DNA of 64,000 bases. Source: Escherichia phage Ecwhy_1. Under the pieces are notes generated by a model, which was not told the origin of the DNA, did no database searches, and saw only the letters and a list, made by a program, of their open reading frames with translations. The stretch lies in sequence record MH791411.1; one strand, given 5' to 3'. How positions within the stretch are numbered: the stretch's first letter is position 1; every line of letters starts with the position of its first letter. Position numbers and translations under genes: made by a program. Shown here in pieces: positions 17,429 through 50,730 of the stretch.

Positions 17429-17437
17429 CAGCACCCT

Positions 17438-18982: not shown

Positions 18983-19070
18983 TGATGTTAAAATTCACTA
19001 TATCATTGTGGAATTGGTATGTGAACAAATCAAACTTCGTATGCCTTTGTTTGATATCATAGGCGGTCAT
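18876..19070 (-). CDS. hypothetical small protein
   Basis: 64-aa ORF between two Fam-A genes; real only if 18344..18982 starts at internal Met. Confidence 0.3.
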   Translation of the reverse strand: MTAYDIKQRHTKFDLFTYQFHNDIVNFNINASLHPTSQDDFDNRVLNIVVLLCYNHFSEYFNTR

Positions 19071-19071
19071 A

Positions 19072-20321: not shown

Positions 20322-20324
20322 ATC

Positions 20325-22328: not shown

Positions 22329-22878
22329 AACTATATCCTTGCATTAAAAGATCATAAGCAATATCAACTAATTCTAAACGAATGAAAAATTTTAAATTAT
22401 CTTTCAATGGATTCAAATGCATTGTACTAAACAACATAAGATACTTCATTTGATTTGTATTGTATATTAGGGATGTCTGAAATACTTCTGCTTCATTGTA
22501 AGGATCAATGAATTTTATACCTTCTTCACTATAATCCGTTTTGGAATTCTGATATATAAAATAATCATCACCATAATTGTACCACAAATAACCTTCAAAA
22601 CTGGAATCAAATTCTGAATTTTCATTTCGCATTAAAGGTGATACTGAAATTGGATTTGAACCAACTGTTGCACAAACCTCAATGAAAGCATCTTCATTTC
22701 CCTTAACTTCTTCTTTGATTTTATCATTGTACTGTCCTGCAAAACCAGCTTTTACTTCCAAATATAAACTACTCCCAACTTTATTAATTCTTAAAAGGGA
22801 ACTCTGTACTGTATTCGCATTGTCCAGCACTAACGATATTGTGCAAATCTTATGTACCAATAACTCAATATCATTCAT
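22318..22878 (-). CDS. Fam-A paralog
   Basis: core EAEVFQTSLIY. Confidence 0.55.
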   Translation of the reverse strand: MNDIELLVHKICTISLVLDNANTVQSSLLRINKVGSSLYLEVKAGFAGQYNDKIKEEVKGNEDAFIEVCATVGSNPISVSPLMRNENSEFDSSFEGYLWYNYGDDYFIYQNSKTDYSEEGIKFIDPYNEAEVFQTSLIYNTNQMKYLMLFSTMHLNPLKDNLKFFIRLELVDIAYDLLMQGYSYEV

Positions 22879-22889
22879 ATTGGTATTCC

Positions 22890-23072
22890 TTAATTTGGTG
22901 GATTTGGATGTAATAACTGATCTATATAATTTAAATGTTCTATTGTAACTAATGAAAGATAATAATTGTAATTATCTATACCACCCTTTAAATGTATATT
23001 GTAATACATCTTGATACTTACTAATAAAGAATCATTTAAATCATTTATTGCTTTTGTATTAACGGTTTTCAT
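22890..23072 (-). CDS. hypothetical small protein
   Basis: 60-aa co-oriented ORF. Confidence 0.3.
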   Translation of the reverse strand: MKTVNTKAINDLNDSLLVSIKMYYNIHLKGGIDNYNYYLSLVTIEHLNYIDQLLHPNPPN

Positions 23073-23211
23073 TAATGTTCTTCTCTTAAAAAACGCTTAA
23101 TGGCACAATCTAAATAAAAATCATAATACATCATATCTCTATTCTTAACCCATACACAATAATCTGCATTAATATTTCTTAATAATATATTCATATTATA
23201 ATCTTCACACC

Positions 23212-23622
23212 CTAATCGTGCCATTTAATAGGATACTCCGTTCCATTTATTGTATAAGATATAATCCATCCGTAATGAATAGGATGATTTTTGTCTGAAA
23301 CAGGAATAAAATATAAAGATGTACTGGGGTTATAACTGAATAAATCGTTGTTACCAATTGTAAAATGTGATAACTCAATCTTCCTTGTACCTGTACTTGG
23401 ACGAAGAACATTCTTAACACCGAAGACTGTACCTTGATATTTCTCGGAAAATTCAAACAATGCATCTGCAATTAAATCACGAAACTCCGCATGTATGGTT
23501 TCAAAAAAATCTATATTACACGATGTTTTAATATCCTTGAACTCCTTATATAAAGAGCTTCTTGTATTCAAAAGAAATATTACTTTTTTAAGATCCTGAA
23601 CTATTTCTGGATTCATATTCAT
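23212..23622 (-). CDS. hypothetical protein
   Basis: 136-aa ORF, no family motif. Confidence 0.45.
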   Translation of the reverse strand: MNMNPEIVQDLKKVIFLLNTRSSLYKEFKDIKTSCNIDFFETIHAEFRDLIADALFEFSEKYQGTVFGVKNVLRPSTGTRKIELSHFTIGNNDLFSYNPSTSLYFIPVSDKNHPIHYGWIISYTINGTEYPIKWHD

Positions 23623-23872
23623 TTATCTCATTCTGTAACTTAAGCATCAAAATTTGCATATTAATTTTTTGTACAAGATGATTGAGAAATTTCTGTACTG
23701 TATCTTCTTGTTCTTTTGTACCAAGATAAAATAACATATTAAATTCAGATAATCTCAGAGCGAAATCTTCCTCTCCCCCTCGTAAACAAAAATCCCTGTA
23801 CTTTGAAGCATACAAATAAGCATCTATCTTTTTATACCTTTGGGTCTGCATTGTATCTCCTTTTTCATGCAC
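23588..23872 (-). CDS. Fam-B minigene (outlier)
   Basis: LGTKEQED core. Confidence 0.45.
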   Translation of the reverse strand: MHEKGDTMQTQRYKKIDAYLYASKYRDFCLRGGEEDFALRLSEFNMLFYLGTKEQEDTVQKFLNHLVQKINMQILMLKLQNEINEYESRNSSGS

Positions 23873-24036
23873 CTTATTAGATTATCAACGTATTGATCCT
23901 GTACTATTGTCCCTAGATAAAATGATACTTCGAACTCTGATAATTTTATATTGAAAGGATCTACATATACATCTTTAATAAACTCTTTGTACTTCAACAT
24001 ATATGCATTAGGTATATTCTTATATATCGATTTCAA
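23824..24036 (-). CDS. Fam-B minigene (outlier)
   Basis: LGTIVQDQ core. Confidence 0.45.
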   Translation of the reverse strand: MKSIYKNIPNAYMLKYKEFIKDVYVDPFNIKLSEFEVSFYLGTIVQDQYVDNLIRCMKKEIQCRPKGIKR

Positions 24037-24331
24037 TGATCCTCCCTGACATACCTTGTATTAGCTTATCATACATATCGAGCATCACTTTTTGAATACT
24101 AATTAATACTGGCATCGTGCAAATATCAATGTCGTATATTAAGCTGTACTGGAATAATTCCTCTTCCTGCATGTGTACTAAATTAGGTAAAAGATAATTG
24201 TCTGCCTCTTCATCCTGGTACTTGAAATGCATAACACCATCCTTTTTGTACAAAAGAATGTCAATATCACCTAACTCTTCTGCATAACCAAAAATACATA
24301 TACTCGATGTTTTTGCTATATTAAATTTCAT
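24020..24331 (-). CDS. Fam-A paralog
   Basis: core EEELFQYSLIY. Confidence 0.6.
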   Translation of the reverse strand: MKFNIAKTSSICIFGYAEELGDIDILLYKKDGVMHFKYQDEEADNYLLPNLVHMQEEELFQYSLIYDIDICTMPVLISIQKVMLDMYDKLIQGMSGRIIEIDI

Positions 24332-24340
24332 ATTCTTCTC

Positions 24341-24691
24341 TTATATGTAGAATTCACATACGCGTTGAACAAAATTCTTTGGAAGATGACAATGTGCAAT
24401 CATCTGCTTTTGTACTTCCTTCATGTCTTCGAATGTAAATCCTAAAGAATCATCATGTACTAACAAGTACTGAAACTCTTCTTCTTCAGAGATAGAACAT
24501 AAATTCGGTACTGAAATTGTTTTTGCTTTTCTTGCACCCAATTTCCAATGAAAAGAATTATTGCATTTTCTGTACTCAAATATCTTCAACCCAGAACCTG
24601 TATTAAAATCAGCTACTACAATGTAACATGAATTCTTACGTACAATACAATTGAACTTACGCATTATCTCCACCTCTCTCCGTCTGTACAA
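24341..24691 (-). CDS. Fam-A paralog
   Basis: core EEEEFQYLLV; likely starts at MRKFN (about 24664). Confidence 0.55.
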   Translation of the reverse strand: MYRRREVEIMRKFNCIVRKNSCYIVVADFNTGSGLKIFEYRKCNNSFHWKLGARKAKTISVPNLCSISEEEEFQYLLVHDDSLGFTFEDMKEVQKQMIAHCHLPKNFVQRVCEFYI

Positions 24692-26330: not shown

Positions 26331-26542
26331 ATCTTTTCCTGTACTATCTGCATAAGAATCTCTATGTGTGAATTAACAGTTCTCTCTTGATGCTGTGTTC
26401 CTAAGAGTGTCAGTACTATCATATCTGAACGCAAAAGATTTTTTTCAAGTTCACTTATATCAGTTCTTGAATCAAGTGCCATATATTTGTGATTATTCTT
26501 CCTGAATAGTGCCAAGTACTCTTGATTTGATATTTCCTTCAT
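26327..26542 (-). CDS. Fam-B minigene
   Basis: array member, LGTQHQER. Confidence 0.55.
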   Translation of the reverse strand: MKEISNQEYLALFRKNNHKYMALDSRTDISELEKNLLRSDMIVLTLLGTQHQERTVNSHIEILMQIVQEKI

Positions 26543-26778
26543 AGTTTATCCCTGATGCCATTTAAAAGTGCTCTAATATGCTCCTGTACGAATTTGTACT
26601 GACTGTCTGTTCCTAGAGTGAGTAGTAATCTTAAATCTGAACTTTTGATATGATATTCTAAATCATTATTTGATTCTTGCATCAGTTTCTTAAAGGATGA
26701 GAAGTTTGCAGCCATTAGTTCAATGTATTCTGCTGTTCCTAGGGGTTTGTGTATTGGCTGTTTGTGCTGTCTGTGCAT
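26539..26778 (-). CDS. Fam-B minigene
   Basis: array member, LGTDSQYK. Confidence 0.55.
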   Translation of the reverse strand: MHRQHKQPIHKPLGTAEYIELMAANFSSFKKLMQESNNDLEYHIKSSDLRLLLTLGTDSQYKFVQEHIRALLNGIRDKL

Positions 26779-26990
26779 TTTAATTTTATTACCCTTTTGA
26801 GTGTATTAATGTAATTATACACATTGGCTTCTTGATAGTTTGTTCCTAGAGTAGCTTGAACGTAGATTTCATTTAACTTAATAATTTTATCAGTATCTGG
26901 AAGTTTTGATGTGTTAATGGCAAATAACTTCGAAAACAGTCCATTTATGATTGTTAGGTATTCTTCGTCGGTAATGATTCGCATTTGCAT
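26739..26990 (-). CDS. Fam-B minigene
   Basis: array member, LGTNYQEA; start likely internal. Confidence 0.55.
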   Translation of the reverse strand: MQMRIITDEEYLTIINGLFSKLFAINTSKLPDTDKIIKLNEIYVQATLGTNYQEANVYNYINTLKRVIKLKCTDSTNSQYTNP

Positions 26991-27196
26991 TGGATAAACC
27001 TTTTTAGTTCTTTGATGTAATCATTAATATTACATTCTTGATAGTTAGTCCCTAGGGTAGAATTAACATAGATTTCACTCATTAGAATATTTTTTTCTTC
27101 ATCAGGTAAATCTGTGGTCTTTGCTATATACAATTTTAGAATTAAACTACTTAATAGTTCGTGGTATTCACTTGGTGAAAGGATTTTCATTTGCAT
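26954..27196 (-). CDS. Fam-B minigene
   Basis: array member, LGTNYQEC. Confidence 0.55.
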   Translation of the reverse strand: MQMKILSPSEYHELLSSLILKLYIAKTTDLPDEEKNILMSEIYVNSTLGTNYQECNINDYIKELKRFIQCKCESLPTKNT

Positions 27197-27402
27197 GTTC
27201 TCAGTACAGATTCTTTAAGTTCATCGATGTAGTCCTCAACGAATTGCTCTTGGAAGTTAGTTCCAACATATAAAAGAACTCTTAAATCTGCTCTAAGTAA
27301 CTCTTTTTCATCCTCATCTATATCAGACAATGTTATGTTTAAGAATTTACTTGTATTAAAGATTAACAATTCTGTTTGTTCACTGTGGCTTAAAATTTTC
27401 AT
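27187..27402 (-). CDS. Fam-B minigene
   Basis: array member, VGTNFQEQ. Confidence 0.55.
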   Translation of the reverse strand: MKILSHSEQTELLIFNTSKFLNITLSDIDEDEKELLRADLRVLLYVGTNFQEQFVEDYIDELKESVLRTCK

Positions 27403-27610
27403 AATCTCTTTTTGCTTTCCTCGACAGTAGGTACAAATACGATTCTTCGTATTGTGCTTGGAAGTTTGTGTTTAAGAGTCGAAACAACTTCTGTTCTGCT
27501 AGAACGAGTTGCTTATCTTCATAACAACGGTAGCGTATCAACTTTTTGTATTCGATGTTGATTACATCCATTACTATAAGCCCATGTTCATCATCTGTCA
27601 AGTGCTTCAT
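27380..27610 (-). CDS. Fam-B minigene
   Basis: array member, LNTNFQAQ. Confidence 0.5.
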   Translation of the reverse strand: MKHLTDDEHGLIVMDVINIEYKKLIRYRCYEDKQLVLAEQKLFRLLNTNFQAQYEESYLYLLSRKAKRDYENFKPQ

Positions 27611-27848
27611 GCTTTTTTCTTTTCCTGATGTGTTTAGTTAAAAGGTATATTAGTTTTCTGATGTATTCTTCTTGATAGTTTGTTCCTAGGAGTGCCAGAA
27701 GTTTTGCTTCAACTAAAGCTAATTGACGTTCTTCAAATGTGTGTTCCAGTATGTACTTTGGGTTTGATTTTTTAGATATTGCACTATTAGTTTTCATTAC
27801 AATCTTATGATATTCATTAACTGTTAGGATTTTTAAATTCTTGAGCAT
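27591..27848 (-). CDS. Fam-B minigene
   Basis: array member, LGTNYQEE. Confidence 0.55.
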   Translation of the reverse strand: MLKNLKILTVNEYHKIVMKTNSAISKKSNPKYILEHTFEERQLALVEAKLLALLGTNYQEEYIRKLIYLLTKHIRKRKKHEALDR

Positions 27849-28074
27849 GTACCTTTTCCTTTATAGAGAATTTAAGATATCGAAGCATACTTTCAATGTA
27901 ATACTCTTGTCTGTCAGTGCCAAGAAAGTACATGAGTTGAATGTATAAAACTTCTGCACTCCTTTCGGCATGTGACTTGTTTGTGTCGTTTGGAAGTTGA
28001 TTTGTAAGTTTTCTGGATTTAATTAGTCGTTCTTTTAACTCATCGTCTGTTAAGTATTTCATTTCATTTTGCAT
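27817..28074 (-). CDS. Fam-B minigene
   Basis: array member, LGTDRQEY. Confidence 0.55.
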   Translation of the reverse strand: MQNEMKYLTDDELKERLIKSRKLTNQLPNDTNKSHAERSAEVLYIQLMYFLGTDRQEYYIESMLRYLKFSIKEKVHAQEFKNPNS

Positions 28075-28294
28075 TTACTTTTTCCTTAATACTCATTACA
28101 AGATGTTCAATCATATTTTGAACCATAAATTCTTGTTTATCAGTTCCAAGAACGTATGGTAGCTTCTGAAACAATACATTCGCAGACATTTCATATATTG
28201 ATTGATTTGGAACGAACTTAAGAGTAATGTTATTGGCTTTTAACATCTTCTCTTGAAATTCTTCATTCGTTAAGTATATCATTTCACTTTGCAT
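28064..28294 (-). CDS. Fam-B minigene
   Basis: array member, LGTDKQEF. Confidence 0.55.
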   Translation of the reverse strand: MQSEMIYLTNEEFQEKMLKANNITLKFVPNQSIYEMSANVLFQKLPYVLGTDKQEFMVQNMIEHLVMSIKEKVNAK

Positions 28295-28520
28295 TTACTT
28301 TTTCCATAATAGTAATTTTGAGATATTTAATTATACGTTCAATGTGATACTCTTGCCTATCAGTTCCAAGAATGTATGGTAATCTTTGGAATAAAACTTC
28401 TGCACTCCTTTCCGCTGGGGTTTGGTTTGGGTTGTGTGGAAGATATTTTGTAAGTTTTTTGGATTTATCTAGTCTTTCTGTTAACTCATCATGTGTTAAG
28501 TATATCATTTCATTTTGCAT
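28284..28520 (-). CDS. Fam-B minigene
   Basis: array member, LGTDRQEY. Confidence 0.55.
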   Translation of the reverse strand: MQNEMIYLTHDELTERLDKSKKLTKYLPHNPNQTPAERSAEVLFQRLPYILGTDRQEYHIERIIKYLKITIMEKVNAK

Positions 28521-28756
28521 TTAATGTTCCTTACGTAAATTGTCTGGATTAAACAATCAATCCAAGTTTGAATATATTGGTTTTGATACTGTGTGCCTAA
28601 GAGACTCTGCATTTTAAACTCTGCTTCAAGTTCATATCTCTTTTCTATAGAAAAGCTCAAATGACCATATTCTTTATCGTATCTTCTCAGTGCTTCCCCA
28701 ATTCTATCAAATCTTTCTGCTAATCTGATGTTATTCACAATATTCATCGCATTCAT
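28505..28756 (-). CDS. Fam-B minigene
   Basis: array member, LGTQYQNQ. Confidence 0.55.
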   Translation of the reverse strand: MNAMNIVNNIRLAERFDRIGEALRRYDKEYGHLSFSIEKRYELEAEFKMQSLLGTQYQNQYIQTWIDCLIQTIYVRNIKCKMK

Positions 28757-29031
28757 CGATCAGTACACCTCAGTGGTTGGGTCATTTGATGAAAGTACAG
28801 CTTACCTCTGATTTCCAGTAGTAACTCAGCAATTAAGCGATTTACTTCTGGCTCTTGATAGTTTGTTCCTAAGAATACACCCATCTTTAACTCACGCATC
28901 ATAATCATTTTCTTACTGTGTTGAATTTCTGGGTTGTGATAGATTGTATTACGTTTGTGCGTAATTTTTGTCATACGCTCGGTATATTCATCTTTACTTA
29001 AATTGATCATTTGCATGTTCATCAACCTCAC
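28753..29031 (-). CDS. Fam-B minigene
   Basis: array member, LGTNYQEP. Confidence 0.55.
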   Translation of the reverse strand: MRLMNMQMINLSKDEYTERMTKITHKRNTIYHNPEIQHSKKMIMMRELKMGVFLGTNYQEPEVNRLIAELLLEIRGKLYFHQMTQPLRCTDR

Positions 29032-29242
29032 ATTTATTTTCGATACAAATCATGAGTTCTCTAAGATAGTTTTTTACCTTACCTGCCTGATAGTTCGTCC
29101 CCAGGAAGTTGCATAACTCTGCTTCTATCATTTTGATTCTTCTGTTATCAGGTTTCAATTTTTTGTTATTGAAGATTTGAATCCTTATATCCCTTGATGC
29201 ATTTAAACGTTTTTGATATTCATGGAAAGATAAATTAATCAT
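28994..29242 (-). CDS. Fam-B minigene
   Basis: array member, LGTNYQAG. Confidence 0.55.
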   Translation of the reverse strand: MINLSFHEYQKRLNASRDIRIQIFNNKKLKPDNRRIKMIEAELCNFLGTNYQAGKVKNYLRELMICIENKCEVDEHANDQFK

Positions 29243-29457
29243 TTACTTTGTATCTCTCTCTTGAGGGCATCAATTAACAACAGTACAGCATTCTCTTGAT
29301 AGTTTGTTCCTAAGACTGAAAGCATCTTAATCTCATTTACTACGATCAACTTCTTTGAGCGTTCAATAATGTTACTATTATAAACGGCGTTACGTGCTGG
29401 ATAAGTTTTTGCAAGACGTTCATAATATTCATCTTTACTTAAATTAATCATTTGCAT
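29239..29457 (-). CDS. Fam-B minigene
   Basis: array member, LGTNYQEN. Confidence 0.55.
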   Translation of the reverse strand: MQMINLSKDEYYERLAKTYPARNAVYNSNIIERSKKLIVVNEIKMLSVLGTNYQENAVLLLIDALKREIQSK

Positions 29458-29666
29458 TTACTTTTGACCTCCTTGACTAATGCATCAACCCACATGTCTA
29501 TATACATTTGTTGATAGTTTGTCCCTATGAGTGCCCCTGCATAGAGTTCAGCTATCAATGCATGTTTTAGGTTGGCAGGGATGCTCTTATCAGATTGAAT
29601 CTTTACTCTTCTGTTGGCACATGTTTTCAGGAGTCTGATGTATTCAAAGCCTTGTAATTTTCTCAT
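29448..29666 (-). CDS. Fam-B minigene
   Basis: array member, IGTNYQQM. Confidence 0.55.
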   Translation of the reverse strand: MRKLQGFEYIRLLKTCANRRVKIQSDKSIPANLKHALIAELYAGALIGTNYQQMYIDMWVDALVKEVKSKCK

Positions 29667-29878
29667 TCTTTTGATATCACCTTGTTACGTAAGGCACTTA
29701 ACAATACGTCAGTGTAGATGTTTTGATAGTTTGTTCCTACGAATACACCCAACTTCATTTCAGCTATTATAACACATTTGTCCTCTTGTGCAATAGACTT
29801 GTCTAAAGAAATACTAACAACTTTCCTTCTTATAGCTTGTAACCTCCAATGATACTGAAACTCATTTAGGGTTATCAT
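29663..29878 (-). CDS. Fam-B minigene
   Basis: array member, VGTNYQNI. Confidence 0.55.
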   Translation of the reverse strand: MITLNEFQYHWRLQAIRRKVVSISLDKSIAQEDKCVIIAEMKLGVFVGTNYQNIYTDVLLSALRNKVISKE

Positions 29879-30113
29879 TCTCTCGCCTCCATATCTCGGT
29901 TCTAATGTGTTGACATTGTGCTTCGATGAACATATCTATTGATTTGGCAATTGCTTTTTTATCAGTGCCTGTCATCAGTACAAGCATCTCGGCCTCACAG
30001 TGAAGTAAACGCATGATATCATAGGGTAATATTCCAGATACCGTGTCATAGTGTTTCTGTGCCAGTGTCTGTAATAGTTTACAATACATTTTGTGATTTA
30101 GTCTTTGTCGCAT
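29862..30113 (-). CDS. Fam-B minigene (divergent)
   Basis: array member, TGTDKKAI. Confidence 0.45.
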   Translation of the reverse strand: MRQRLNHKMYCKLLQTLAQKHYDTVSGILPYDIMRLLHCEAEMLVLMTGTDKKAIAKSIDMFIEAQCQHIRTEIWRRENDNPK

Positions 30114-30370
30114 TGTCTATTCCATTCTTTTTTGGCCTTGATGGTTTTATATTGGATTTGGTTTCTTAATGCTGATAAGTATCGTTGAATGAACAGATCT
30201 TGATAGTTTGTTCCAATGAATTTCATAAGATAAAGTTCACCGTTGATAACATCCACTTCAGGTGCACCATATAAGGCATTGTTTTTTCTAAGGGCATGGA
30301 TTAAAGAGAATAGGGCAGTTTGATACTCAACTCCTGATAAAGTCTTCATGTTTTGTGAGCCAATAATCAT
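30098..30370 (-). CDS. Fam-B minigene
   Basis: array member, IGTNYQDL. Confidence 0.55.
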   Translation of the reverse strand: MIIGSQNMKTLSGVEYQTALFSLIHALRKNNALYGAPEVDVINGELYLMKFIGTNYQDLFIQRYLSALRNQIQYKTIKAKKEWNRQCDKD

Positions 30371-30590
30371 CTAGTTTATCCTGTATAACATTCATTAATT
30401 GTTCGACATATTCTGTGCAAAACTTATCTTGATATTGAGTCCCCATAAAGTACAGCAACCATAGCTCATTAACTTTAGCTCGCATTTGGTTCCATGTAAG
30501 GCTGGGGTCATCGTAGACTATCCTTGCTATAGGGGTTAGTTTACGGACTATAGTTTCATATTCATCTAGTGTTAAGTGTTTCATTTGCAT
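30327..30590 (-). CDS. Fam-B minigene
   Basis: array member, MGTQYQDK. Confidence 0.55.
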   Translation of the reverse strand: MQMKHLTLDEYETIVRKLTPIARIVYDDPSLTWNQMRAKVNELWLLYFMGTQYQDKFCTEYVEQLMNVIQDKLDDYWLTKHEDFIRS

Positions 30591-30799
30591 TTGTCCCTTA
30601 TTAAATCAGTGAGGGCAACTATGTGTGCAACAACATACTCTTCCTGAAAGTTCGTCCCCAGTACAGCCATCATGCGTATATCGGTGGTGTTTATTCTGTG
30701 TTCCCTTACACATAAACCTTCTGTGTGAGGAAGTGTAAAATATTTGTTTATTGCAGCAACGATAATTTTATTCTTCTCGTAATTACTTAAATGTTTCAT
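30581..30799 (-). CDS. Fam-B minigene
   Basis: array member, LGTNFQEE. Confidence 0.55.
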   Translation of the reverse strand: MKHLSNYEKNKIIVAAINKYFTLPHTEGLCVREHRINTTDIRMMAVLGTNFQEEYVVAHIVALTDLIRDKCK

Positions 30800-31008
30800 A
30801 GTTTGCTCTTAATGTATTTCTGGAGTGCAATTATATACTCATTCAAGAAGTGCTCCTGATAATCTGTGCCGAGGAATGCACCCAATAGTATATCATTTTC
30901 CAATACTAATGCTAAGTTTAAATCATCAGTCTCTTCATATACTATGAGAATTTCAAGTTGTCTGGCAGCGACGCGTTCGGTATATAGATTTGAGTTAATG
31001 CTATTCAT
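30796..31008 (-). CDS. Fam-B minigene
   Basis: array member, LGTDYQEH; near-duplicate of next gene. Confidence 0.6.
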   Translation of the reverse strand: MNSINSNLYTERVAARQLEILIVYEETDDLNLALVLENDILLGAFLGTDYQEHFLNEYIIALQKYIKSKL

Positions 31009-31217
31009 AGTTTACTCTTAATGTAATTCTGGAGTGCAATTAAGTATTCCCCTACATAATACACCTGAAAGTCTGTATCCAAAAATGCACCCATAAGTAA
31101 ATCTTTTTCTAATACCCTTGATAAGTTAAGGTCTGCATTTGAATTGTATATAATTAAGATTTTATTCTGGACAGAAACAAAACGTATCTTATATTCTTCT
31201 GGTGTTAAAAAAATCAT
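31005..31217 (-). CDS. Fam-B minigene
   Basis: array member, LDTDFQVY. Confidence 0.55.
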   Translation of the reverse strand: MIFLTPEEYKIRFVSVQNKILIIYNSNADLNLSRVLEKDLLMGAFLDTDFQVYYVGEYLIALQNYIKSKL

Positions 31218-31423
31218 AGTTTACTCTTAATATCTTCTATTAAAAAATGAATCCAATCATCAACATACTCTTCCTGATGGTTTGTGTTCAGTACAGCCAA
31301 CATGCGGATCTCTGCTCTTGCAACTTGGATTTCAGTTTTAGAAAGGTCTTTGCTGATATCAAACATTAAGTCCATGTATTTCAAGATAAGACCGAATGAT
31401 TGGGTTCGTGTTATAGTTTTCAT
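31214..31423 (-). CDS. Fam-B minigene
   Basis: array member, LNTNHQEE. Confidence 0.55.
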   Translation of the reverse strand: MKTITRTQSFGLILKYMDLMFDISKDLSKTEIQVARAEIRMLAVLNTNHQEEYVDDWIHFLIEDIKSKL

Positions 31424-31620
31424 TGTTTCCTCGTGGACAATATTTCATTTTTCAATGCATCCATATATTGAATCACCCATCTTCCCTGATAGCTTGTACC
31501 CAATGTAATCAAAAGGTATAACTCAATTCGTTCTAAGTTTGTGTCTGTGTTATAAATCTTTACCATGTTTTTACGTAACAGTTCTTGATAATCTTCTTTA
31601 TTTAAAATACGCATTTTCAT
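31420..31620 (-). CDS. Fam-B minigene
   Basis: array member, LGTSYQGR. Confidence 0.55.
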   Translation of the reverse strand: MKMRILNKEDYQELLRKNMVKIYNTDTNLERIELYLLITLGTSYQGRWVIQYMDALKNEILSTRKQ

Positions 31621-31814
31621 AGTCTACCTTTTATGTCCCTTCGTAATTCTTGTAAGTATAGTTCGATATACTTTTCTTGATAGTTAGTTCCTATGAAAAG
31701 TTTCATAACCAATTCACGCTTATATGCAATACCACGGATATGTGACATATGTAAGATATATGCCATGTTGGATATGAGTGTGTGGTTGTGCTCTTCTTGA
31801 GTTAAAATACGCAT
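31617..31814 (-). CDS. Fam-B minigene (first of array)
   Basis: IGTNYQEK; TTGACT ... TATTAT promoter about 31840-31875 upstream. Confidence 0.55.
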   Translation of the reverse strand: MRILTQEEHNHTLISNMAYILHMSHIRGIAYKRELVMKLFIGTNYQEKYIELYLQELRRDIKGRL

Positions 31815-32063
31815 AGGGACTCCATTAAAAATAATATCAATCCAATAATATACGATTCATATAAAAAGTCAATAACATTTTATAAGTAATACCCCTTTAT
31901 CGAAGTCGCTAAGGTTACCCGCCCTTTAGCCCCCTACGCATTTTGCCATAGTCCAATCCCTTTTTATTCATAAAAGTCAAGGGATTACCTATGCATTTTT
32001 TTAACGCTGAAGTTTAAAAATGCCTTGACTTTTTTATGATTCAGTACTAAATCCTTTTACGCA

Positions 32064-39117: not shown

Positions 39118-39578
39118 TTTAATGTTTCCTTATCAGTGGTTGATGTAAGTATTATACTCGTTTACTTTCTATTGTCAAACTATTTTATCAGGGGAGTTTT
39201 TCGTATGTCTTACTCCTGGACTACTTAACGGGGTTACTTATTTCGTTCCCCGTCCTGATGTAAAACATTATACTTGATTCTAAGTACAATGCAAGTACTT
39301 TTTTAAAAATAGTTTTCAGTACTAGCCACCAGCAAACAATAGATACATTTATGCACCCTGTGGGCTAATTTGTTTCTATGCGTATATAATAGCAAAGGGA
39401 CTGACCGGAGTCAATCCCTTTTTCAAATATTTTTAAACTTCTTTCGGGTTGCGATATGTGATAGCGTTCGGGTACATTTGTTTAATGTTATTCCATGCCT
39501 GGTTAACATTATAACCACTTGATCGAATCAGTTGGTTATTACCGACACCTTGAAACACTACTTCAAATAAGAATTCTT

Positions 39579-39839: not shown

Positions 39840-40052
39840 TTAATCTTTCAGCCAATGATCCTGAATGAATTTTTCACCGGAACCTTGCTGCATTGATTGT
39901 AACAGACGTTCGCGATGAGCGGCGGCGAATTGCTCAGTACTATGCGTTACACCTGGTTGATATCTGGATTCACCATTTGGGGCGATGTATTGTACATCCC
40001 ACGGTTTTTCGTTAGTATCAGACCATTTACGAACGATTAGTTGACCTTGCAT
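39840..40052 (-). CDS. hypothetical small protein
   Basis: 70-aa ORF, cassette upstream. Confidence 0.45.
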   Translation of the reverse strand: MQGQLIVRKWSDTNEKPWDVQYIAPNGESRYQPGVTHSTEQFAAAHRERLLQSMQQGSGEKFIQDHWLKD

Positions 40053-40135
40053 TTTTCTTTCCTCTTAGTGGGGAGAATCATTTCTCCCCTTCATGTAAAC
40101 TATTATACAGTACTGGATTGCATTGTCAATAGTTT

Positions 40136-40459
40136 TTATTCACCTTGTTTGAATATAGTTTTCTCCATTGATTCCATGATTGCAACCAATACAGCATGGA
40201 TCTCACTTAACGCGGCATCACTAAAAGCATTAATGAATAGGCAATCATTCTCGCGAATATTTTTAATGTACTTATCAGCAGTGGTTGCGAATTCATTCAA
40301 CGGCAGATCAAATGCTTTATCCCATAATGGATGGCGTAACTGTAACAGTACTGGATTATCACGATCACCAGGGGAAAACGTACCAGTGATGAAACATACG
40401 CCCGGAATACTTTCGAACTGGCAACGGACTTCCTTTGTGATAGTAGTATGAATGTACAT
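40136..40459 (-). CDS. hypothetical protein
   Basis: 107-aa ORF. Confidence 0.45.
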   Translation of the reverse strand: MYIHTTITKEVRCQFESIPGVCFITGTFSPGDRDNPVLLQLRHPLWDKAFDLPLNEFATTADKYIKNIRENDCLFINAFSDAALSEIHAVLVAIMESMEKTIFKQGE

Positions 40460-40486
40460 TTATTGTTATCCTCTATTAAATTAATA

Positions 40487-40675
40487 TTACAGTTTATGAA
40501 TTAATTCTTTATCTAAGCGATAGCGTACATTATTAATGGTAACAGCATTATTTTTAATGCTACGCTGTACGGGTCCACCAGCAATAACAAACGTTGCTTT
40601 ATTGCCCCGAACAATGATAGCACTTCCAGGATTACCGAAATCATCTTGTACTAAAATACTTGATAAGTTTTCCAT
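40487..40675 (-). CDS. hypothetical small protein
   Basis: 62-aa ORF, cassette upstream. Confidence 0.4.
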   Translation of the reverse strand: MENLSSILVQDDFGNPGSAIIVRGNKATFVIAGGPVQRSIKNNAVTINNVRYRLDKELIHKL

Positions 40676-40753
40676 TTTTATTTCCTCTTAGTAGGGGAAG
40701 ATGTTTCCCCTTGATGCAAGTACTATAACAGTACTGAAAACTAAATGCAAGTA

Positions 40754-41110
40754 CTATGATAAAATCATGATAGGATATTCACTATCTATCAATACCTCGA
40801 ATCCGAAACCTTCGTACCATTCTTTAAGATTAAAGGCGTTATCTTCTCCCGTATCGCATTCTAAGATGATACAATCTGAATCATCGGCGGCATCAATAAA
40901 GGCATTCATTAATTCGTTACCTTCACCATTGCCCCGACTATCAGGATCAACATAAAGAGAATCAATAAACGCTACACGGTCATAATCAAGATCCGGTGCA
41001 ATGATTCCACGTTTAACAAACCAGTACTGCAATTGTGCTACTTTGCCCTGTACTTGATAGCCAGTGATCTCGCCATTGTCAGTAGTACGCGTGATATGTT
41101 GTATTCCCAT
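40754..41110 (-). CDS. GNAT-family N-acetyltransferase-like protein
   Basis: motif-A-like VDPDSRGNGEGNELM and motif-B-like WYEGFGFE; short (118 aa). Confidence 0.45.
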   Translation of the reverse strand: MGIQHITRTTDNGEITGYQVQGKVAQLQYWFVKRGIIAPDLDYDRVAFIDSLYVDPDSRGNGEGNELMNAFIDAADDSDCIILECDTGEDNAFNLKEWYEGFGFEVLIDSEYPIMILS

Positions 41111-41173
41111 GATTACTATCCTCAGTTAAGATATAAAACATTATACACTATCTTTCAGTACTGTCAATACTTT

Positions 41174-41431
41174 TTATCTCATAGATCTATGCCAACAATT
41201 ACGCGGATCTCTTTTAAAAGTACTATCATGATCCTCCTGGCAAGTAATACAATACATGCACCCTATAACGGCCTGGCGTCGATTCTCAGGGATTTTATCG
41301 CCGCAGTCGAGGCAATGTACAAGTGATTCTCTTTGTGCGTTAATTTGCTTTCTAGCGTGGTTAACGGCGGCCTGAATCACTGCATGAATCTCGTCTTGTT
41401 CGGCCCCGTCTTTCGCGTATCCTACTGCCAT
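41174..41431 (-). CDS. TraR/DksA-family C4 zinc-finger protein
   Basis: CLDCGDKIPENRRQAV ... CITCQ matches CxxC ... IP..RR ... CxxC signature. Confidence 0.6.
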   Translation of the reverse strand: MAVGYAKDGAEQDEIHAVIQAAVNHARKQINAQRESLVHCLDCGDKIPENRRQAVIGCMYCITCQEDHDSTFKRDPRNCWHRSMR

Positions 41432-41594
41432 TATTTTAACCTCATTATAAAAATACTATAGTACTGTAATGCTACAATAATACTACTAGTGTTTATCTTA
41501 TTCAAACCATATGATACTACATATCCACCAGCATTACCACGAATAGTAACGCCTTTGTACTGTCTATATAAATTCAACTGCGTATATTGCCTTT

Positions 41595-41665
41595 GATCAA
41601 GAATTGATCAGAATTATACGCCTTATGCTAAATTGATCCAGTACTTTTTTGATCATTTATTGATC
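41595..41665. repeat. cluster of five TTGATC(A) repeats (5 GATC sites in 71 bp)
   Basis: GATC at 41595, 41606, 41635, 41651, 41662; in long leader upstream of TraR-like gene. Confidence 0.5.
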
Positions 41666-41760
41666 GATATTATATAGTTACATTTGTGCACCCTATGGGT
41701 TAGTGACGTTCTCGTCTTGATGTAAGTATTATGCCAGTACTGGAGGATATTGTCAATAGA

Positions 41761-41964
41761 TTATTTTAATTTTTTTCTGTCATTGATTAATGCTTTCAGT
41801 ACTATACTAATAACTTGCAATGATTCATCAATGACAATGAAATTATTCTCTTTCATTAGATGATAGTTACCATTGATTGTATATTCTAACGAGTACTGTT
41901 TACGTTTAATTTTTGATAATGTTTCTATTTGTTTTTGTACTGATTTCATGCTAATCATTGTCAA
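41761..41964 (-). CDS. hypothetical small protein
   Basis: 67-aa ORF. Confidence 0.4.
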   Translation of the reverse strand: MTMISMKSVQKQIETLSKIKRKQYSLEYTINGNYHLMKENNFIVIDESLQVISIVLKALINDRKKLK

Positions 41965-42063
41965 ACGTCCTGTAACGCATTCTAACGAGATAAACGGTTT
42001 AGTACTGGCATTGTATAGGGTAAATGATTAAAGCCCACCAGCGTTAACCAGTGGGCTATAATA

Positions 42064-42207
42064 TTACATCTTGCGGATAATCTTAACAGTATCTTTCACC
42101 GATTTACCGTTTTGCTGACATTGCTCGATCATCGCGTATTGTTCTGCGGTCAGATCCTCGCCAGTTTTTGCCAGTACTGCGTCGATGAATGAATCCAGTG
42201 CGATCAT
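42064..42207 (-). CDS. hypothetical small protein (47 aa)
   Basis: hand-translated ATG..TAA ORF; GCCCAC/GTGGGC terminator hairpin directly downstream. Confidence 0.35.
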   Translation of the reverse strand: MIALDSFIDAVLAKTGEDLTAEQYAMIEQCQQNGKSVKDTVKIIRKM

Positions 42208-42297
42208 TTTATTTCTCTCTTAGGTTAAGTTAACTACTGTTTATAAAACTTATTATACAGTACTATCAATCTATGTCAATAGTACTGGTAATATATT

Positions 42298-42477
42298 TTA
42301 GCGGTAGTCGTCGTATGCTTTATTCACCTGGCGAATATAACTTTCAAAGGCTTCGTCTACCGTTTCATACTCCCGAACATAATCACCATATGAAACTACA
42401 TACATACCTTTTTGATCTTCAAACGTCATGATGATAGAATCCAGACCAACGATTTCAGTTTTTGCGATGATAGCCAT
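42298..42477 (-). CDS. hypothetical small protein (59 aa)
   Basis: hand-translated ATG..TAA ORF in cassette-like spacing. Confidence 0.35.
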   Translation of the reverse strand: MAIIAKTEIVGLDSIIMTFEDQKGMYVVSYGDYVREYETVDEAFESYIRQVNKAYDDYR

Positions 42478-42560
42478 TTTTTAATTCCTTAGTAGTGTAG
42501 TTGATAAAAGTTATTATGTCAGTACTATCAAACTATGTCAATAGTACTGTGATAATATTT

Positions 42561-42773
42561 TTAGTTAATGATAGTCAGTGTAAAATTGTAATCACCGCAG
42601 CGATATAGCACGTTATTCCCAAATGTCCCAACTAATCGCACATCACACAAAACGCCGGTTTTTTCTTTTACTTCCTTGATACTTGTAACTCCTGTAATAT
42701 CTTTATTAAAGTATTCATGATCTGAAAATAAAACTTGTTTTGCATTTTTTAATTTCGACCGGATATTAGCCAT
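42561..42773 (-). CDS. hypothetical small protein
   Basis: 70-aa ORF with hairpin leader. Confidence 0.45.
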   Translation of the reverse strand: MANIRSKLKNAKQVLFSDHEYFNKDITGVTSIKEVKEKTGVLCDVRLVGTFGNNVLYRCGDYNFTLTIIN

Positions 42774-42869
42774 TTTGTTTTCTCTCTCTGTTAGTGGGGA
42801 GAAGTTTTTCTCCCCTTGATGTAAACTATTATACAGTACTATAATCTATTGTCAAACTATTTTTTTATA

Positions 42870-43211
42870 TTATTCGAAATCTTCTGGACCGGACTGATAA
42901 TCATCTTCACCGTATGCACTTTCTAACCGCTCGCCAGTGTGATCATCAGTTAGTGAGTCATCCTCATAGTTCACGTCTACGCCAGTGATGTAAAACTGGC
43001 TATCGTCTGGATCATTGAAATTAATTTTCTGTATGTTTACAATAACTGTATTGATGCCCAGGACACCGCCATCAGCCGTTACAAAGTACTGATAGTTTTC
43101 GCAACCGCCTGAATTGAAACCGTAATTAATTTCGGCCCGACCATCATTTAAACGCAGTGCCTGGGCGATGATTTCGTTTTCAAAGTTAGATTGAGCAATT
43201 GAGATAGTCAT
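42870..43211 (-). CDS. hypothetical acidic protein
   Basis: trimmed to MTISIAQSNF; acidic C-terminus. Confidence 0.45.
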   Translation of the reverse strand: MTISIAQSNFENEIIAQALRLNDGRAEINYGFNSGGCENYQYFVTADGGVLGINTVIVNIQKINFNDPDDSQFYITGVDVNYEDDSLTDDHTGERLESAYGEDDYQSGPEDFE

Positions 43212-50557: not shown

Positions 50558-50586
50558 TTGACAGCATTATCAAGTACTGGTATAAT
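50558..50586 (+). promoter_or_regulatory. orphan sigma70-type promoter TTGACA-N17-TATAAT
   Basis: plus strand, no ORF downstream; faces minus-strand promoter at 50702-50730. Confidence 0.5.
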
Positions 50587-50701
50587 ATACCCCATGACAA
50601 CAGCTAACCCACCGGGTGCACAATTGTAACTATACTAAACTAATTTTTCTATAGATACACTCCCGCACCCTATGGGCTACGGCTTATCTGCCAATGAATA
50701 C

Positions 50702-50730
50702 ATTATGCCAGTACTGACAAAATAAGTCAA
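50702..50730 (-). promoter_or_regulatory. sigma70-type promoter TTGACT-N17-CATAAT (convergent partner)
   Basis: read on minus strand; leader contains AGCCCATAGGGTGC. Confidence 0.5.

What the first reader, a model, noticed from the sequence alone, without database searches (positions are those of the whole stretch)
40754..41760. GNAT-like acetyltransferase next to a TraR/DksA-type zinc finger with a GATC-rich leader
Adjacent genes encode a 118-aa protein with GNAT motif A/B-like segments and an 85-aa protein with the CxxC..IP..RR..CxxC TraR/DksA signature. DksA/TraR-like proteins bind the RNA polymerase secondary channel, so a phage copy could reprogram host transcription. The TraR-like gene has an unusually long leader containing five TTGATC(A) repeats within 71 bp (41595-41665), a possible Dam/SeqA-sensitive or regulator-bound switch.
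Basis: partly seen in the sequence, partly recalled or inferred. Interest (0 to 1): 0.45.

Follow-up and report, generated by a model that had tools for sequence, protein, structure and literature searches.

The report
Jumbo-phage early genes with GATC-rich cassette
This is an ordinary stretch of early "host-takeover" genes in the terminal repeat of a known giant E. coli phage (a small acetyltransferase and a YbiI/TraR-type zinc-finger protein, both already annotated), but the GATC cluster is real, the only one in a 352-kb relative's genome, and sits in an optional 329-bp promoter-plus-small-gene cassette rather than in a plain leader.

Summary
The window is an Asteriusvirus jumbo coliphage (99.9% identical to fEgEco12 here). 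The locus lies mid-way in the ~21-kb direct terminal repeat, an array of small early genes that each have a consensus sigma-70 promoter.

Both protein calls hold and are already annotated in GenBank. The 118-aa protein is a complete mini-GNAT. The 85-aa protein is a DksA/TraR zinc ribbon, closest to E. coli YbiI. It lacks TraR's DxxDxA motif.

The two genes are not an obligate pair. The GNAT gene is missing in BF17, PBECO4 and SD-2_S15, with breakpoints inside repeated promoter modules.

The "long leader" is not a plain leader. It holds:
- a strong promoter, P1;
- a recurrent RNA hairpin plus box element;
- a second promoter, P2, embedded in the GATC repeats;
- a conserved 48-aa ORF translationally coupled to the zinc-finger gene.

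The GATC cluster is real. It is the only site with at least 4 GATC in 75 bp in the 352-kb genome of relative TH47, where GATC is depleted overall. It persists in two diverged alleles.

The whole 329-bp cassette is absent in phage ph0011, and no such cluster precedes homologues elsewhere. A Dam/SeqA- or protein-controlled P2 is plausible but unproven. Interest is modest.

The parts
40754..41110 (-). 118-aa mini-GNAT acetyltransferase gene (fEgEco12 g031, 121Q gp295); optional cassette
   Evidence: ORF. Pfam Acetyltransf_1/7/10 above cutoff. Motif A is R59-G-N-G62-E-G64; R59 and G62 are nearly invariant and G64 invariant in a family of ~115-140-aa proteins. AF2 pLDDT 93.6. Foldseek returns GNATs, including AcrVA5 at TMt 0.77. 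Absent in BF17, PBECO4 and SD-2_S15, with breakpoints inside promoter modules.
41140..41167 (-). Sigma-70 consensus promoter of the GNAT gene (TTGACA-16-TATAAT)
   Evidence: 12/12 consensus match; member of the repeated early-promoter family.
41174..41431 (-). 85-aa YbiI-like DksA/TraR C4 zinc-ribbon protein gene (fEgEco12 g030, 121Q gp294)
   Evidence: PF01258 above cutoff. Best PDB sequence hit is E. coli YbiI 2KGO (E 2.4e-11), then TraR (5e-6). NCBIfam PRK11019 (YbiI) scores 78.6 bits. The AF2 model matches TraR in RNAP complexes. PHROG 54. Homologues occur in 953 phage records.
41431..41577 (-). 48-aa ORF (TTG start), translationally coupled to the zinc-finger gene (TAATG overlap); fEgEco12 g029, 121Q gp293, PHROG 38664
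   Evidence: Two alleles differ strongly at DNA level but keep the frame. Variable columns by codon position are 12/9/26 and dN/dS is 0.15-0.35. Only Asteriusvirus homologues were found.
41613..41640 (-). Internal promoter P2: -35 TGGATC (41640-41635; TTGATC in allele 2), 16-nt spacer, -10 TATAAT (41618-41613)
   Evidence: Aligns base for base with the aaaaAGTAC-TTGCAA-N16(..GGCG)-TATAAT promoter family of the repeat. The -10 is invariant in 12 genomes and a GATC lies in the -35 in both alleles.
41593..41665 (.). Cluster of five TTGATC (GATCAA on the transcribed strand), arranged as two GATC pairs 11 bp apart plus one GATC in the P2 -35
   Evidence: Positions; statistics; unique in a whole genome. 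GATC cores are invariant while flanks vary between alleles; allele 2 has four GATC in two 11-bp pairs.
41592..41674 (.). Two 27-bp direct repeats (41592-41618 and 41648-41674, 78% identical), each TATAAT + GATCAA-N5-GATCAA on the minus strand. Inverted repeats: TGATCAA-N3-TTGATCA (41594-41610) and GATCA-N5-TGATC (41651-41665)
   Evidence: the repeat finder D1 and I13, plus reading of the sequence. Allele 2 keeps both inverted repeats, but TGATCAA-TAC-TTGATCA lies over the P2 -35 instead of downstream of the -10.
41680..41716 (-). Promoter-proximal RNA element: hairpin GACG-AGAA-CGTC (41716-41705), then box CCCATAGGGTG (41699-41689) and GC..ATGTAAC
   Evidence: Nine exact box copies in the window against 0.76 expected, all downstream of promoters. 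Eight copies in TH47, confined to the 30 kb containing the repeat, and seven in the Muenster repeat. The hairpin stem covaries: 12/16 copies and 9 different stems, against shuffles with mean 4.5 and maximum 11. No Rfam match.
41728..41756 (-). Promoter P1 (TTGACA-17-CATAAT, TG-extended)
   Evidence: 11/12 consensus match; hexamers invariant in 12 genomes.
41432..41760 (-). The 329-bp cassette as a whole (P1, RNA box, GATC repeats/P2, 48-aa ORF), flanked by direct repeat TTAAAATAAT
   Evidence: Absent in ph0011, where the zinc-finger ATG overlaps the stop of the upstream 65-aa gene. Present as two alleles in 26 of 40 records that matched the leader query.
41761..41964 (-). Upstream small gene (65-67 aa, PHROG 36844) whose last codons (..KLK*) are repeated at the end of the 48-aa ORF

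Best explanation
The region is part of the early gene array in the ~21-kb direct terminal repeat of an Asteriusvirus jumbo coliphage (121Q/PBECO4/fEgEco12 group). Small genes sit head to tail on one strand, most with their own consensus sigma-70 promoter, and are gained and lost as cassettes by recombination between repeated promoter sequences.

The 118-aa gene encodes a complete minimal GNAT. Inferred: an acetyl-CoA-dependent protein acetyltransferase acting on a host protein.

The 85-aa gene encodes a YbiI-type member of the DksA/TraR zinc-ribbon family. Inferred: it inserts its N-terminal helix into the secondary channel of host RNA polymerase. That would depress promoters with short-lived open complexes, while the phage's consensus promoters with A+T-rich discriminators stay active.

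The two genes are independent cassettes.

The 'leader' is a third, optional 329-bp cassette bounded by TTAAAATAAT repeats. It carries strong promoter P1, a structured RNA element found downstream of several promoters of the repeat, a weaker internal promoter P2, and a 48-aa ORF translationally coupled to the zinc-finger gene.

The five GATC surround and invade P2: one lies in its -35, a pair lies upstream, and a pair lies in its initial transcribed sequence. The most likely role (inferred, roughly 0.35) is to make P2, or passage of P1 transcripts through it, depend on adenine methylation state and SeqA, or on a protein that reads GATCAA repeats one helical turn apart. It would tune expression of the 48-aa ORF and the zinc-finger gene. 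It is not an essential cis site of the genome.
For: - Identity and location: 99.9% identity to fEgEco12. The vB_Ec-M-J record annotates a direct terminal repeat at positions 1-21525. The fEgEco12 repeat is 20,993 bp and confirmed by restriction digestion (PMC13070987).
- Promoter array.
- GNAT. The domain is also fused to polyvalent-type partners, Amidoligase_2 and PARP+ParB_N. A review predicts that jumbo-phage GNATs modify host proteins such as RNAP (PMC7824862).
- Zinc finger. TraR homologues from phages bind RNAP and inhibit rRNA promoters (PMC9239242). YbiI was reported to rescue dksA auxotrophy when overexpressed, as data not shown (PMC2613031).
- Cassette nature: GNAT indel; leader indel.
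- 48-aa ORF under purifying selection.
- P2 is homologous to the promoter family.
- GATC cluster: significant, unique genome-wide against an O/E of 0.47, and kept in two alleles while flanks diverge.
- Relative TH47 encodes a PF05869 Dam-family methyltransferase.
Against: - No functional data exist for any part.
- The zinc-finger family lacks DxxDxA and scores below the NCBIfam cutoffs for TraR and YbiI. Its model is of medium confidence (pLDDT 70).
- Inside the terminal repeat GATC is not depleted (O/E 0.94), so the local background is higher than the genome average.
- All five sites share GATCAA, which is more than Dam or SeqA need. That fits a sequence-specific reader or simple duplication history; the two 27-bp units are 78% identical.
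- The cluster is absent from the Muenster terminal repeat, from ph0011, and from all other homologue loci examined.
- The specificity of the PF05869 enzyme was not determined.
Confidence: 0.55

Rival explanations
1. First reader's model. GNAT and the TraR-like protein form a functional pair, and the GATC-rich stretch is the 5' leader of the TraR-like mRNA, acting as a Dam/SeqA switch dedicated to that gene.
For: The genes are adjacent in the window and in about half of the relatives. The GATC cluster is real.
Against: GNAT is absent in BF17, PBECO4 and SD-2_S15. ph0011 has both genes but no leader at all. A 48-aa ORF and a second promoter lie between the cluster and the gene. No cluster lies upstream of homologues elsewhere.
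Confidence: 0.1
2. The repeats are binding sites (operator or iteron-like) for a sequence-specific DNA-binding protein, phage or host. It would read GATCAA direct repeats spaced 11 bp or the palindromes TGATCAA-N3-TTGATCA and GATCA-N5-TGATC, and repress P2. Methylation would be irrelevant or secondary.
For: All five sites extend to GATCAA in one orientation. Both inverted repeats are kept in the two alleles, but the 17-bp one has moved from +2..+18 to over the -35, as operators can. The 11-bp periodicity equals one helical turn.
Against: No candidate binding protein was identified. TTGATCA occurs only twice elsewhere in the window, at isolated sites. The shared flanks may reflect duplication.
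Confidence: 0.2
3. The repeats act at RNA level. GAUCAA-containing hairpins in the 5' untranslated region stabilise the transcript or control translation of the 48-aa ORF, replacing the GGGGAGAA..UUCUCCCC hairpin that follows paralogous promoters.
For: The inverted repeat at 41594-41610 sits exactly where paralogous promoters carry a 5' hairpin. The leader folds better than shuffles (z -2.76). The motif is strand-asymmetric.
Against: In allele 2 the same hairpin lies upstream of the P2 start and the position after the -10 has no clear hairpin. There is no covariation, because GATC is self-complementary. A z-score of -2.76 is modest.
Confidence: 0.12
4. The cluster is a neutral by-product of a local 27-bp duplication in a fast-evolving optional cassette and has no function of its own.
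For: The two 27-bp units are 78% identical. The cassette is dispensable and genus-specific. GATC is not counter-selected in the repeat (O/E 0.94).
Against: Both alleles keep 4-5 GATC in 11-bp pairs although the adjacent 130 bp have diverged strongly. The GATC cores are invariant in 12 genomes while neighbouring bases vary. It is the only such cluster in 352 kb.
Confidence: 0.18
5. The cluster is a genome-level cis site, such as a P1-pac-like terminase recognition site made of TGATCA/G hexamers gated by Dam, or a SeqA-sequestered replication origin.
For: Four of five hexamers are TGATCA/G, as in the seven-hexamer P1 pac site (PMC10028697). The cluster is unique in the genome and lies next to a strong promoter.
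Against: By coordinate mapping it lies about 11 kb from the physical end, near the middle of the repeat. It is absent in ph0011 and from the Muenster repeat. The region is not an outstanding low-stability DNA stretch (86th-88th percentile). It is not in or near a terminase gene.
Confidence: 0.04

Closest known systems
E. coli YbiI (PDB 2KGO; NCBIfam PRK11019), an uncharacterised DksA/TraR-family zinc-finger protein
   Same: Best sequence match from residue 1 to 69 (E 2.4e-11). Same length class, same N-terminal MA.G(F/W)A.D.A motif, same C4 finger. Best fold match.
   Different: Scores 78.6 bits, below the family cutoff of 96. The phage clade has its own invariant C-terminal tail FKRxPRNCWHRSMR in place of the bacterial ..NRRGSKDSQLR. 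YbiI's own function is not established.
F-plasmid TraR and phage homologues such as lambda Orf73 (RNA polymerase secondary-channel regulators)
   Same: C4 zinc ribbon with IP..RR, a long N-terminal helix and a C-terminal helix. The model superposes on TraR bound to RNAP (TM 0.64, rmsd 3.2-3.8 A). Early expression in a phage, as for Orf73.
   Different: No DxxDxA motif; the conserved N-terminus is AKDGA(E/V)Q. Below the TIGR02419 and PRK13715 cutoffs. RNAP binding is untested.
Minimal GNATs of mobile elements (AcrVA5, PDB 6IUF) and phage GNATs that modify host proteins (phiKMV Rac)
   Same: Short GNAT core with intact R-x-x-G-x-G acetyl-CoA motif. Structural match to AcrVA5 (TMt 0.77, rmsd 2.8 A). 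Encoded among early genes. Related domains occur in polyvalent-type proteins.
   Different: Only 17-18% identity to AcrVA5. Target unknown. No evidence of anti-CRISPR or RNAP-directed activity.
PeSL mobile regulatory cassettes of T4-type phages (PMC2839356, PMC4122927)
   Same: Repeated early promoter plus stem-loop modules flank small variable genes. The GNAT indel breakpoints lie inside such modules, so gene gain and loss occurs module by module.
   Different: Here the stem-loop follows the promoter as a 5' hairpin, rather than being described as a terminator before it. The promoters carry AGTACT palindromes. The leader cassette is bounded by a 10-bp coding repeat instead.
Dam-methylation-sensitive sites with clustered GATC (P1 pac hexamers TGATCA/G; from my own knowledge: IS10 transposase promoter, Mu mom upstream region, oriC/dnaA SeqA sequestration)
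   Same: Several GATC within about 70 bp, pairs one helical turn apart, one GATC inside a -35 hexamer, hexamers of TGATCA/G type.
   Different: Methylation dependence was not tested. The element is dispensable and genus-specific. It is not at a packaging or replication locus.

Membership tests
DksA/TraR C4 zinc-finger family (Pfam PF01258) | CxxC-N17-CxxC zinc ribbon with a profile score above the Pfam gathering threshold | tested here: met
   36.9 bits against 24.9. C40, C43, C61 and C64 are invariant across 31 homologues.
TraR proper (F TraR, lambda Orf73; NCBIfam PRK13715 / TIGR02419) | Score above the curated family cutoffs | tested here: not met
   PRK13715 scores 31.6 against 108; TIGR02419 scores 49.1 against 59.7.
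TraR proper | N-terminal DxxDxA motif (D3, D6, A8), required for regulation of transcription (PMC9239242) | tested here: not met
   The N-terminus is MAVGYAKDGAEQDE. The family consensus is MAxGFAKDGA(E/V)Q, with a single conserved Asp/Glu at position 8 and no DxxDxA.
TraR proper | Fold: N-terminal helix, zinc ribbon, C-terminal helix, as in the RNAP-bound structure | tested here: met
   AF2 helices at 6-31 and 62-74 (pLDDT 70). Foldseek matches 6N57_M and 5W1S_M with TMt 0.64.
TraR proper | Binds the RNA polymerase secondary channel and changes initiation at rRNA and amino-acid promoters | not testable with these tools
   Needs in vitro transcription or binding assays.
YbiI (NCBIfam PRK11019 equivalog) | Score above the curated cutoff | tested here: not met
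   78.6 bits against 96. It is the best family and covers residues 1-73.
GNAT acetyltransferases (Pfam PF00583 and relatives) | Profile score above the gathering threshold | tested here: met
   Acetyltransf_1 scores 37.2 against 20.7; Acetyltransf_7 33.5 against 27; Acetyltransf_10 26.3 against 23.6.
GNAT acetyltransferases | Motif A, R/Q-x-x-G-x-G/A (acetyl-CoA pyrophosphate binding) | tested here: met
   R59-G-N-G62-E-G64. G64 is invariant and R59 and G62 nearly invariant in 34 family members.
GNAT acetyltransferases | GNAT alpha/beta fold | tested here: met
   AF2 pLDDT 93.6 and pTM 0.86. 19 PDB GNAT chains match at E<=1e-3 with probability 1.0.
GNAT acetyltransferases | Acetyl transfer to a defined substrate | not testable with these tools
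   No substrate can be inferred from sequence.
Dam/SeqA-controlled GATC cluster | Two or more GATC within about three helical turns on the same face, overlapping a promoter or other functional site | tested here: met
   Two pairs at 11-bp spacing, plus a GATC in the -35 of P2 in both alleles.
Dam/SeqA-controlled GATC cluster | Methylation-state-dependent activity or SeqA binding | not testable with these tools
   The only indirect support is a PF05869 Dam-family methyltransferase in relative TH47. Its specificity is unknown.
P1-type pac site | Two groups of TGATCA/G hexamers flanking a cleavage site, at the packaging start within pacA | tested here: not met
   Hexamers are partly similar (4 of 5). 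But by coordinate mapping the site is about 11 kb from the genome end in an early-gene array, and it is absent in ph0011.
PeSL-type mobile regulatory cassettes | Repeated early promoter plus stem-loop modules at the borders of insertions and deletions between close relatives | tested here: met
   The BF17/PBECO4 intergenic region is a chimera of the two promoter modules that flank the GNAT gene in the window. Promoter-hairpin family.

The most novel reading that the evidence does not exclude
The GATC cluster, the only one in a relative's GATC-depleted 352-kb genome, could be an epigenetic timer carried by a mobile promoter cassette. The incoming terminal repeat, methylated by host or phage Dam, would fire P2 or let P1 transcripts through. 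Hemimethylated DNA after replication would be bound by SeqA or a GATCAA-reading protein, shutting off the 48-aa ORF and the RNA-polymerase-binding zinc-finger protein. That would link the early-to-middle switch of a jumbo phage to replication through adenine methylation.
Probability: 0.12. Interest if true: 0.55.

Novelty: new member of a known kind. Interest (0 to 1): 0.3.

Why it matters
The main value is corrective. The two proteins are routine and already annotated. They are not a pair, and the 'leader' is a composite, optional cassette.

If the YbiI-type protein does bind RNA polymerase without the DxxDxA motif, it would define a second way for this fold to act in the secondary channel. 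That would apply to a clade spread over many T4-like and jumbo phages among the 953 phage records with a family match.

The GATC cluster offers a compact, testable case of possible methylation-dependent promoter control in a lytic jumbo phage. Natural with- and without-cassette variants are available as controls.

The side observations may be of wider interest than the finding itself. They are the total absence of GCGC, the 13-fold excess of AGTACT, and a covarying promoter-proximal RNA element confined to the terminal repeats of two genera.

Tried and rejected
- Rfam scan of 40000-43000 at E<=5 found nothing in the leader.
- Replication-origin/DUE idea: nearest-neighbour stability and A+T content of the cluster are only at the 77th-88th percentile of the window.
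- Conservation with the gene: in 30 IMG/VR loci encoding homologues, only 121Q has the cluster. A different jumbo phage (L011) has a terminator and no small ORF upstream.
- Conservation with the terminal repeat: the Muenster repeat has no site with 4 or more GATC in 100 bp.
- An exact-pattern scan of IMG/VR for the leader box found only 121Q.
- tblastn with E. coli Dam (sequence recalled from memory) against TH47 gave no hit (best E 0.12). A motif scan then found the PF05869 enzyme.
- Plus-strand (antisense) promoter TTGATC-18-TATAGT scores only 9/12. By inspection of the alleles its -10 is weakened in allele 2, so I did not pursue it.
- Eyeballed IHF, FNR, DnaA and oriC 13-mer consensus sequences against the repeats. 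None was a convincing match. This was inspection only, not a test.
- Literature search for YbiI function returned mostly ytterbium chemistry. The only relevant statement is in PMC2613031.
- The word-index homology search for the GNAT found only Asteriusvirus copies. The exhaustive search was needed.
- The EC.P1 record ends 9 bp from the cluster, but the record is circular, so I treated the break as arbitrary.
- Similarity of the 48-aa ORF to the 59-aa ORF at 42298-42477 is limited to a 15-residue stretch.
Full report
**What the window is.** The 1.8 kb around the finding is 99.9% identical to Escherichia phage fEgEco12. It is 92-99% identical to some forty other Asteriusvirus jumbo phages (121Q, PBECO4, CMSTMSU and others). 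In vB_Ec-M-J the region is annotated inside the 21,525-bp direct terminal repeat. In fEgEco12 it lies at 10.7-12.5 kb of a 20,993-bp repeat whose ends were confirmed by restriction digestion (PMC13070987). By coordinate mapping to fEgEco12, the repeat should span roughly window positions 31.9-52.9 kb; this is inferred, not checked for collinearity. All genes here are on the minus strand. They are short and mostly hypothetical.

**Checking the observation.** Both ORFs exist as given.
- The 118-aa protein passes three Pfam GNAT models, and the 85-aa protein passes PF01258.
- GenBank already calls them 'GNAT family N-acetyltransferase' and 'DksA-like zinc-finger protein'.
- Five TTGATC lie at 41593-41665.
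- GATC is under-represented in the window: 143 against 204-232 expected. This is the densest cluster in the window.
- Random placement gives P=0.003. None of 300 order-3 Markov simulations reached five in 75 bp. Five TTGATC in 75 bp never arose in 200,000 trials.
- I assembled a complete relative, TH47 (352,450 bp), which carries the same leader allele. It has 581 GATC against 1,243 expected, and this is the only place with at least 4 GATC in 75 bp.
- One caveat: inside the terminal repeat GATC is not depleted (O/E 0.94 in the window, about 1.0 in TH47 and Muenster). The local background is therefore higher than the genome average.

**The zinc-finger protein.**
- Its best solved relative is E. 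coli YbiI (2KGO, E 2.4e-11, aligned from residue 1 to 69). TraR follows at 5e-6.
- NCBIfam ranks YbiI (PRK11019) first at 78.6 bits, below the 96 cutoff. The TraR subfamily and equivalog models are also below cutoff.
- An AlphaFold model built on 31 homologues has medium confidence (pLDDT 70). It shows an N-terminal helix (6-31), a zinc ribbon and a C-terminal helix. It matches YbiI, TraR in two RNA polymerase complexes (TM 0.64) and DksA. The fold claim therefore stands.
- The family alignment shows a conserved N-terminus, MAxGFAKDGA(E/V)Q. The phage clade also has an invariant C-terminal tail, FKRxPRNCWHRSMR.
- The DxxDxA motif is absent. Substitutions at its aspartates D3 and D6 reduce the activity of TraR and lambda Orf73 (PMC9239242).
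- YbiI was reported, as data not shown, to rescue dksA auxotrophy when overproduced (PMC2613031).
- Relatives occur in 953 phage records, including many T4-like phages at 65-72% identity.
- 'Works like TraR' is therefore a fair inference. 'Is a TraR' fails two membership tests.
- The surrounding promoters have consensus hexamers followed by A+T-rich sequence. From general knowledge of DksA/TraR action, such promoters should resist this kind of inhibitor.

**The GNAT.**
- The word-index search found only Asteriusvirus copies. The exhaustive search found 290 representatives at E<=1e-3. Most are 115-140 aa and aligned end to end.
- Motif A (R59-x-x-G62-x-G64) and a WY..GF motif are nearly invariant.
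- The model is confident (pLDDT 93.6). It matches many GNAT structures, including the 92-aa anti-CRISPR acetyltransferase AcrVA5 (TMt 0.77).
- The same domain occurs at the C-terminus of large proteins with Amidoligase_2, or with PARP plus ParB_N domains. That suits a conflict or take-over role, as a jumbo-phage review predicts for phage GNATs (PMC7824862). The substrate is unknown.

**The two genes are not a unit.** BF17, PBECO4 and SD-2_S15 lack the GNAT gene. Their intergenic region is a chimera. Its first half is the promoter upstream of the GNAT gene, and its second half is the promoter and hairpin upstream of the next gene. This is the pattern described for PeSL cassettes in T4-type phages (PMC2839356, PMC4122927).

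**Anatomy of the 'leader' (41432-41760), read on the minus strand.**
1. Promoter P1: TTGACA-17-CATAAT, at 41756-41728.
2. A short hairpin, GACG-AGAA-CGTC, followed by the box CCCATAGGGTGC....ATGTAAC.
   - The box occurs nine times in the window against 0.76 expected, always 21-28 nt after a -10 hexamer.
   - TH47 has eight copies, confined to the 30 kb containing the repeat. The Muenster repeat has seven.
   - In 12 of 16 copies the hairpin is present, with nine different stem sequences. Shuffled controls give a mean of 4.5 and a maximum of 11.
   - RNAalifold adds a G-U-rich stem, GGGUGCA/UGUAUCU, kept through one-sided changes.
   - Rfam has no match.
3. Two 27-bp direct repeats, each TATAAT followed by GATCAA-N5-GATCAA.
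4. Promoter P2 lies between and within those repeats. The sequence aaaaaAGTAC-TGGATC-N16(..AAGGCG)-TATAAT aligns with the aaaaAGTAC-TTGCAA-N16-TATAAT family of the repeat. Its -35 contains a GATC. In place of the usual GGGGAGAA..TTCTCCCC 5' hairpin it has TGATCAA-TTC-TTGATCA.
5. AAAGG, then 12 nt, then a TTG start opening a 48-aa ORF. Its stop overlaps the zinc-finger ATG.

**Alleles and absence of the cassette.** Twelve genomes fall into two alleles.
- They are identical through P1 and the box, and differ at scattered positions in the GATC region.
- They diverge strongly from the P2 -10 to codon 33 of the ORF (dS about 0.8 to 0.9 in the ORF), then are identical again.
- The ORF keeps its frame and start position (TTG or GVG-type GTG). 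Variable columns by codon position are 12/9/26 and dN/dS is 0.15-0.35. It is most likely a real gene (PHROG 38664), although the unverified TH47 record has a stop in it.
- Allele 2 has four GATC, also as two 11-bp pairs. It keeps GATCA-N5-TGATC in place, and it has TGATCAA-TAC-TTGATCA over the P2 -35 instead of after the -10.
- In ph0011 the entire 329 bp is missing. The zinc-finger ATG overlaps the stop of the upstream 65-aa gene. The sequence TTAAAATAAT that ends that gene is the same one that ends the 48-aa ORF in the window.
- The leader is therefore a third optional cassette. It is present in 26 of the 40 records that matched the leader query.

**What the GATC cluster does.**
- A genome-level role (a P1-pac-like site or an origin) is very unlikely. 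The site is about 11 kb from the genome end by coordinate mapping, is missing in ph0011 and Muenster, and is not an unusually unstable stretch of DNA.
- A role specific to the zinc-finger gene is also unlikely.
- What remains is local control of P2 and of read-through from P1. Points in favour: uniqueness of the cluster, retention of 11-bp GATC pairs across alleles, a GATC in the -35, host Dam, and a PF05869 Dam-family methyltransferase in relative TH47.
- The uniform GATCAA extension and the relocated 17-bp palindrome fit a sequence-specific protein as well as they fit Dam/SeqA. The strand asymmetry and hairpin position fit an RNA role. The 27-bp duplication allows a neutral origin.
- I rank methylation- or protein-dependent control of P2 first (about 0.35 within the overall model). 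It is inference.

**Verdict.** The proteins are known kinds and already annotated. The pairing is accidental. The leader is misread. The GATC cluster is genuine and unexplained, but it sits in a dispensable, genus-specific cassette. Interest is modest (0.3). The side observations listed separately may merit their own follow-up.

Noticed in passing
whole window; TH47 whole genome (L046-L053); Muenster L054 1-30000: The tetranucleotide GCGC is completely absent. It occurs 0 times in the 64-kb window (54 expected), 0 in the 352-kb TH47 genome (172 expected), and 0 in 30 kb of Klebsiella phage Muenster. No listed paper from the literature search combined GCGC with these phages..
   Followed up: partly
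whole window, e.g. 41640, 41736, 41157, 40719-40750; densest at about 32-53 kb: AGTACT occurs 282 times against 21 expected. It often appears as CAGTACTG just before the -10 hexamer, or as AGTAC abutting the -35 of the early promoters. There is none at 16475-24466 or 26515-32043. TH47 has 917 copies and the Muenster repeat 157 in 20 kb..
   Followed up: partly
window minus strand 33337, 36089, 39364, 41699, 43369, 50676; plus strand 48205, 50608, 52763: A promoter-proximal RNA element recurs: a covarying hairpin followed by the box CCCAYMGGGUGC..GUAUCU. In TH47 its eight copies lie within the 30 kb containing the repeat, and Muenster has seven in its repeat. It is not in Rfam. Several copies have their own distinct promoter (TTGACTccggtcagtccctttgcTATTAT) and sit about 45 nt upstream of another promoter..
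   Followed up: partly
window 50558-50730: Two box-bearing promoters face each other, plus strand at 50558 and minus strand at 50730. Each transcript would be antisense to the other's box element..
   Followed up: no
window about 31917-52909 against the rest; TH47 80-110 kb; Muenster 1-20030: GATC is strongly depleted outside the terminal repeat (O/E 0.40 in the window, 0.23-0.7 per 10 kb in TH47, 0.5 in Muenster). It is not depleted inside the repeat (0.94-1.0)..
   Followed up: partly
window 39118-39432: A 315-bp stretch has no annotated gene in fEgEco12. It contains a box element with its own promoter (39414) and a second consensus promoter (39178)..
   Followed up: no
window 41506-41523 and 42385-42402: The 48-aa ORF and the 59-aa ORF at 42298-42477 share the peptide G.YVVSYG and 17 of 18 bases. 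Similarity does not extend further..
   Followed up: yes
L043 (TH47), small ORF codon 39: The unverified TH47 record has TAA in place of TAC in the 48-aa ORF. This is either a sequencing error or a natural knockout..
   Followed up: no
phage A4 ON286972.1 326986-327201; K64-1 NC_027399.1 198200-198415: Large relatives (A4 at 355 kb, K64-1 at 347 kb) carry a distant C4 zinc-finger gene of the same family (34-36% identity) elsewhere in the genome. The group may therefore encode two DksA/TraR-like proteins..
   Followed up: no
TH47 record, minus-strand ORF starting near 48753 (L046): A 174-aa PF05869 'Dam' family N6-adenine methyltransferase with an NPPY motif (E 3.5e-33). No E. coli-type Dam was detected by tblastn..
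   Followed up: partly
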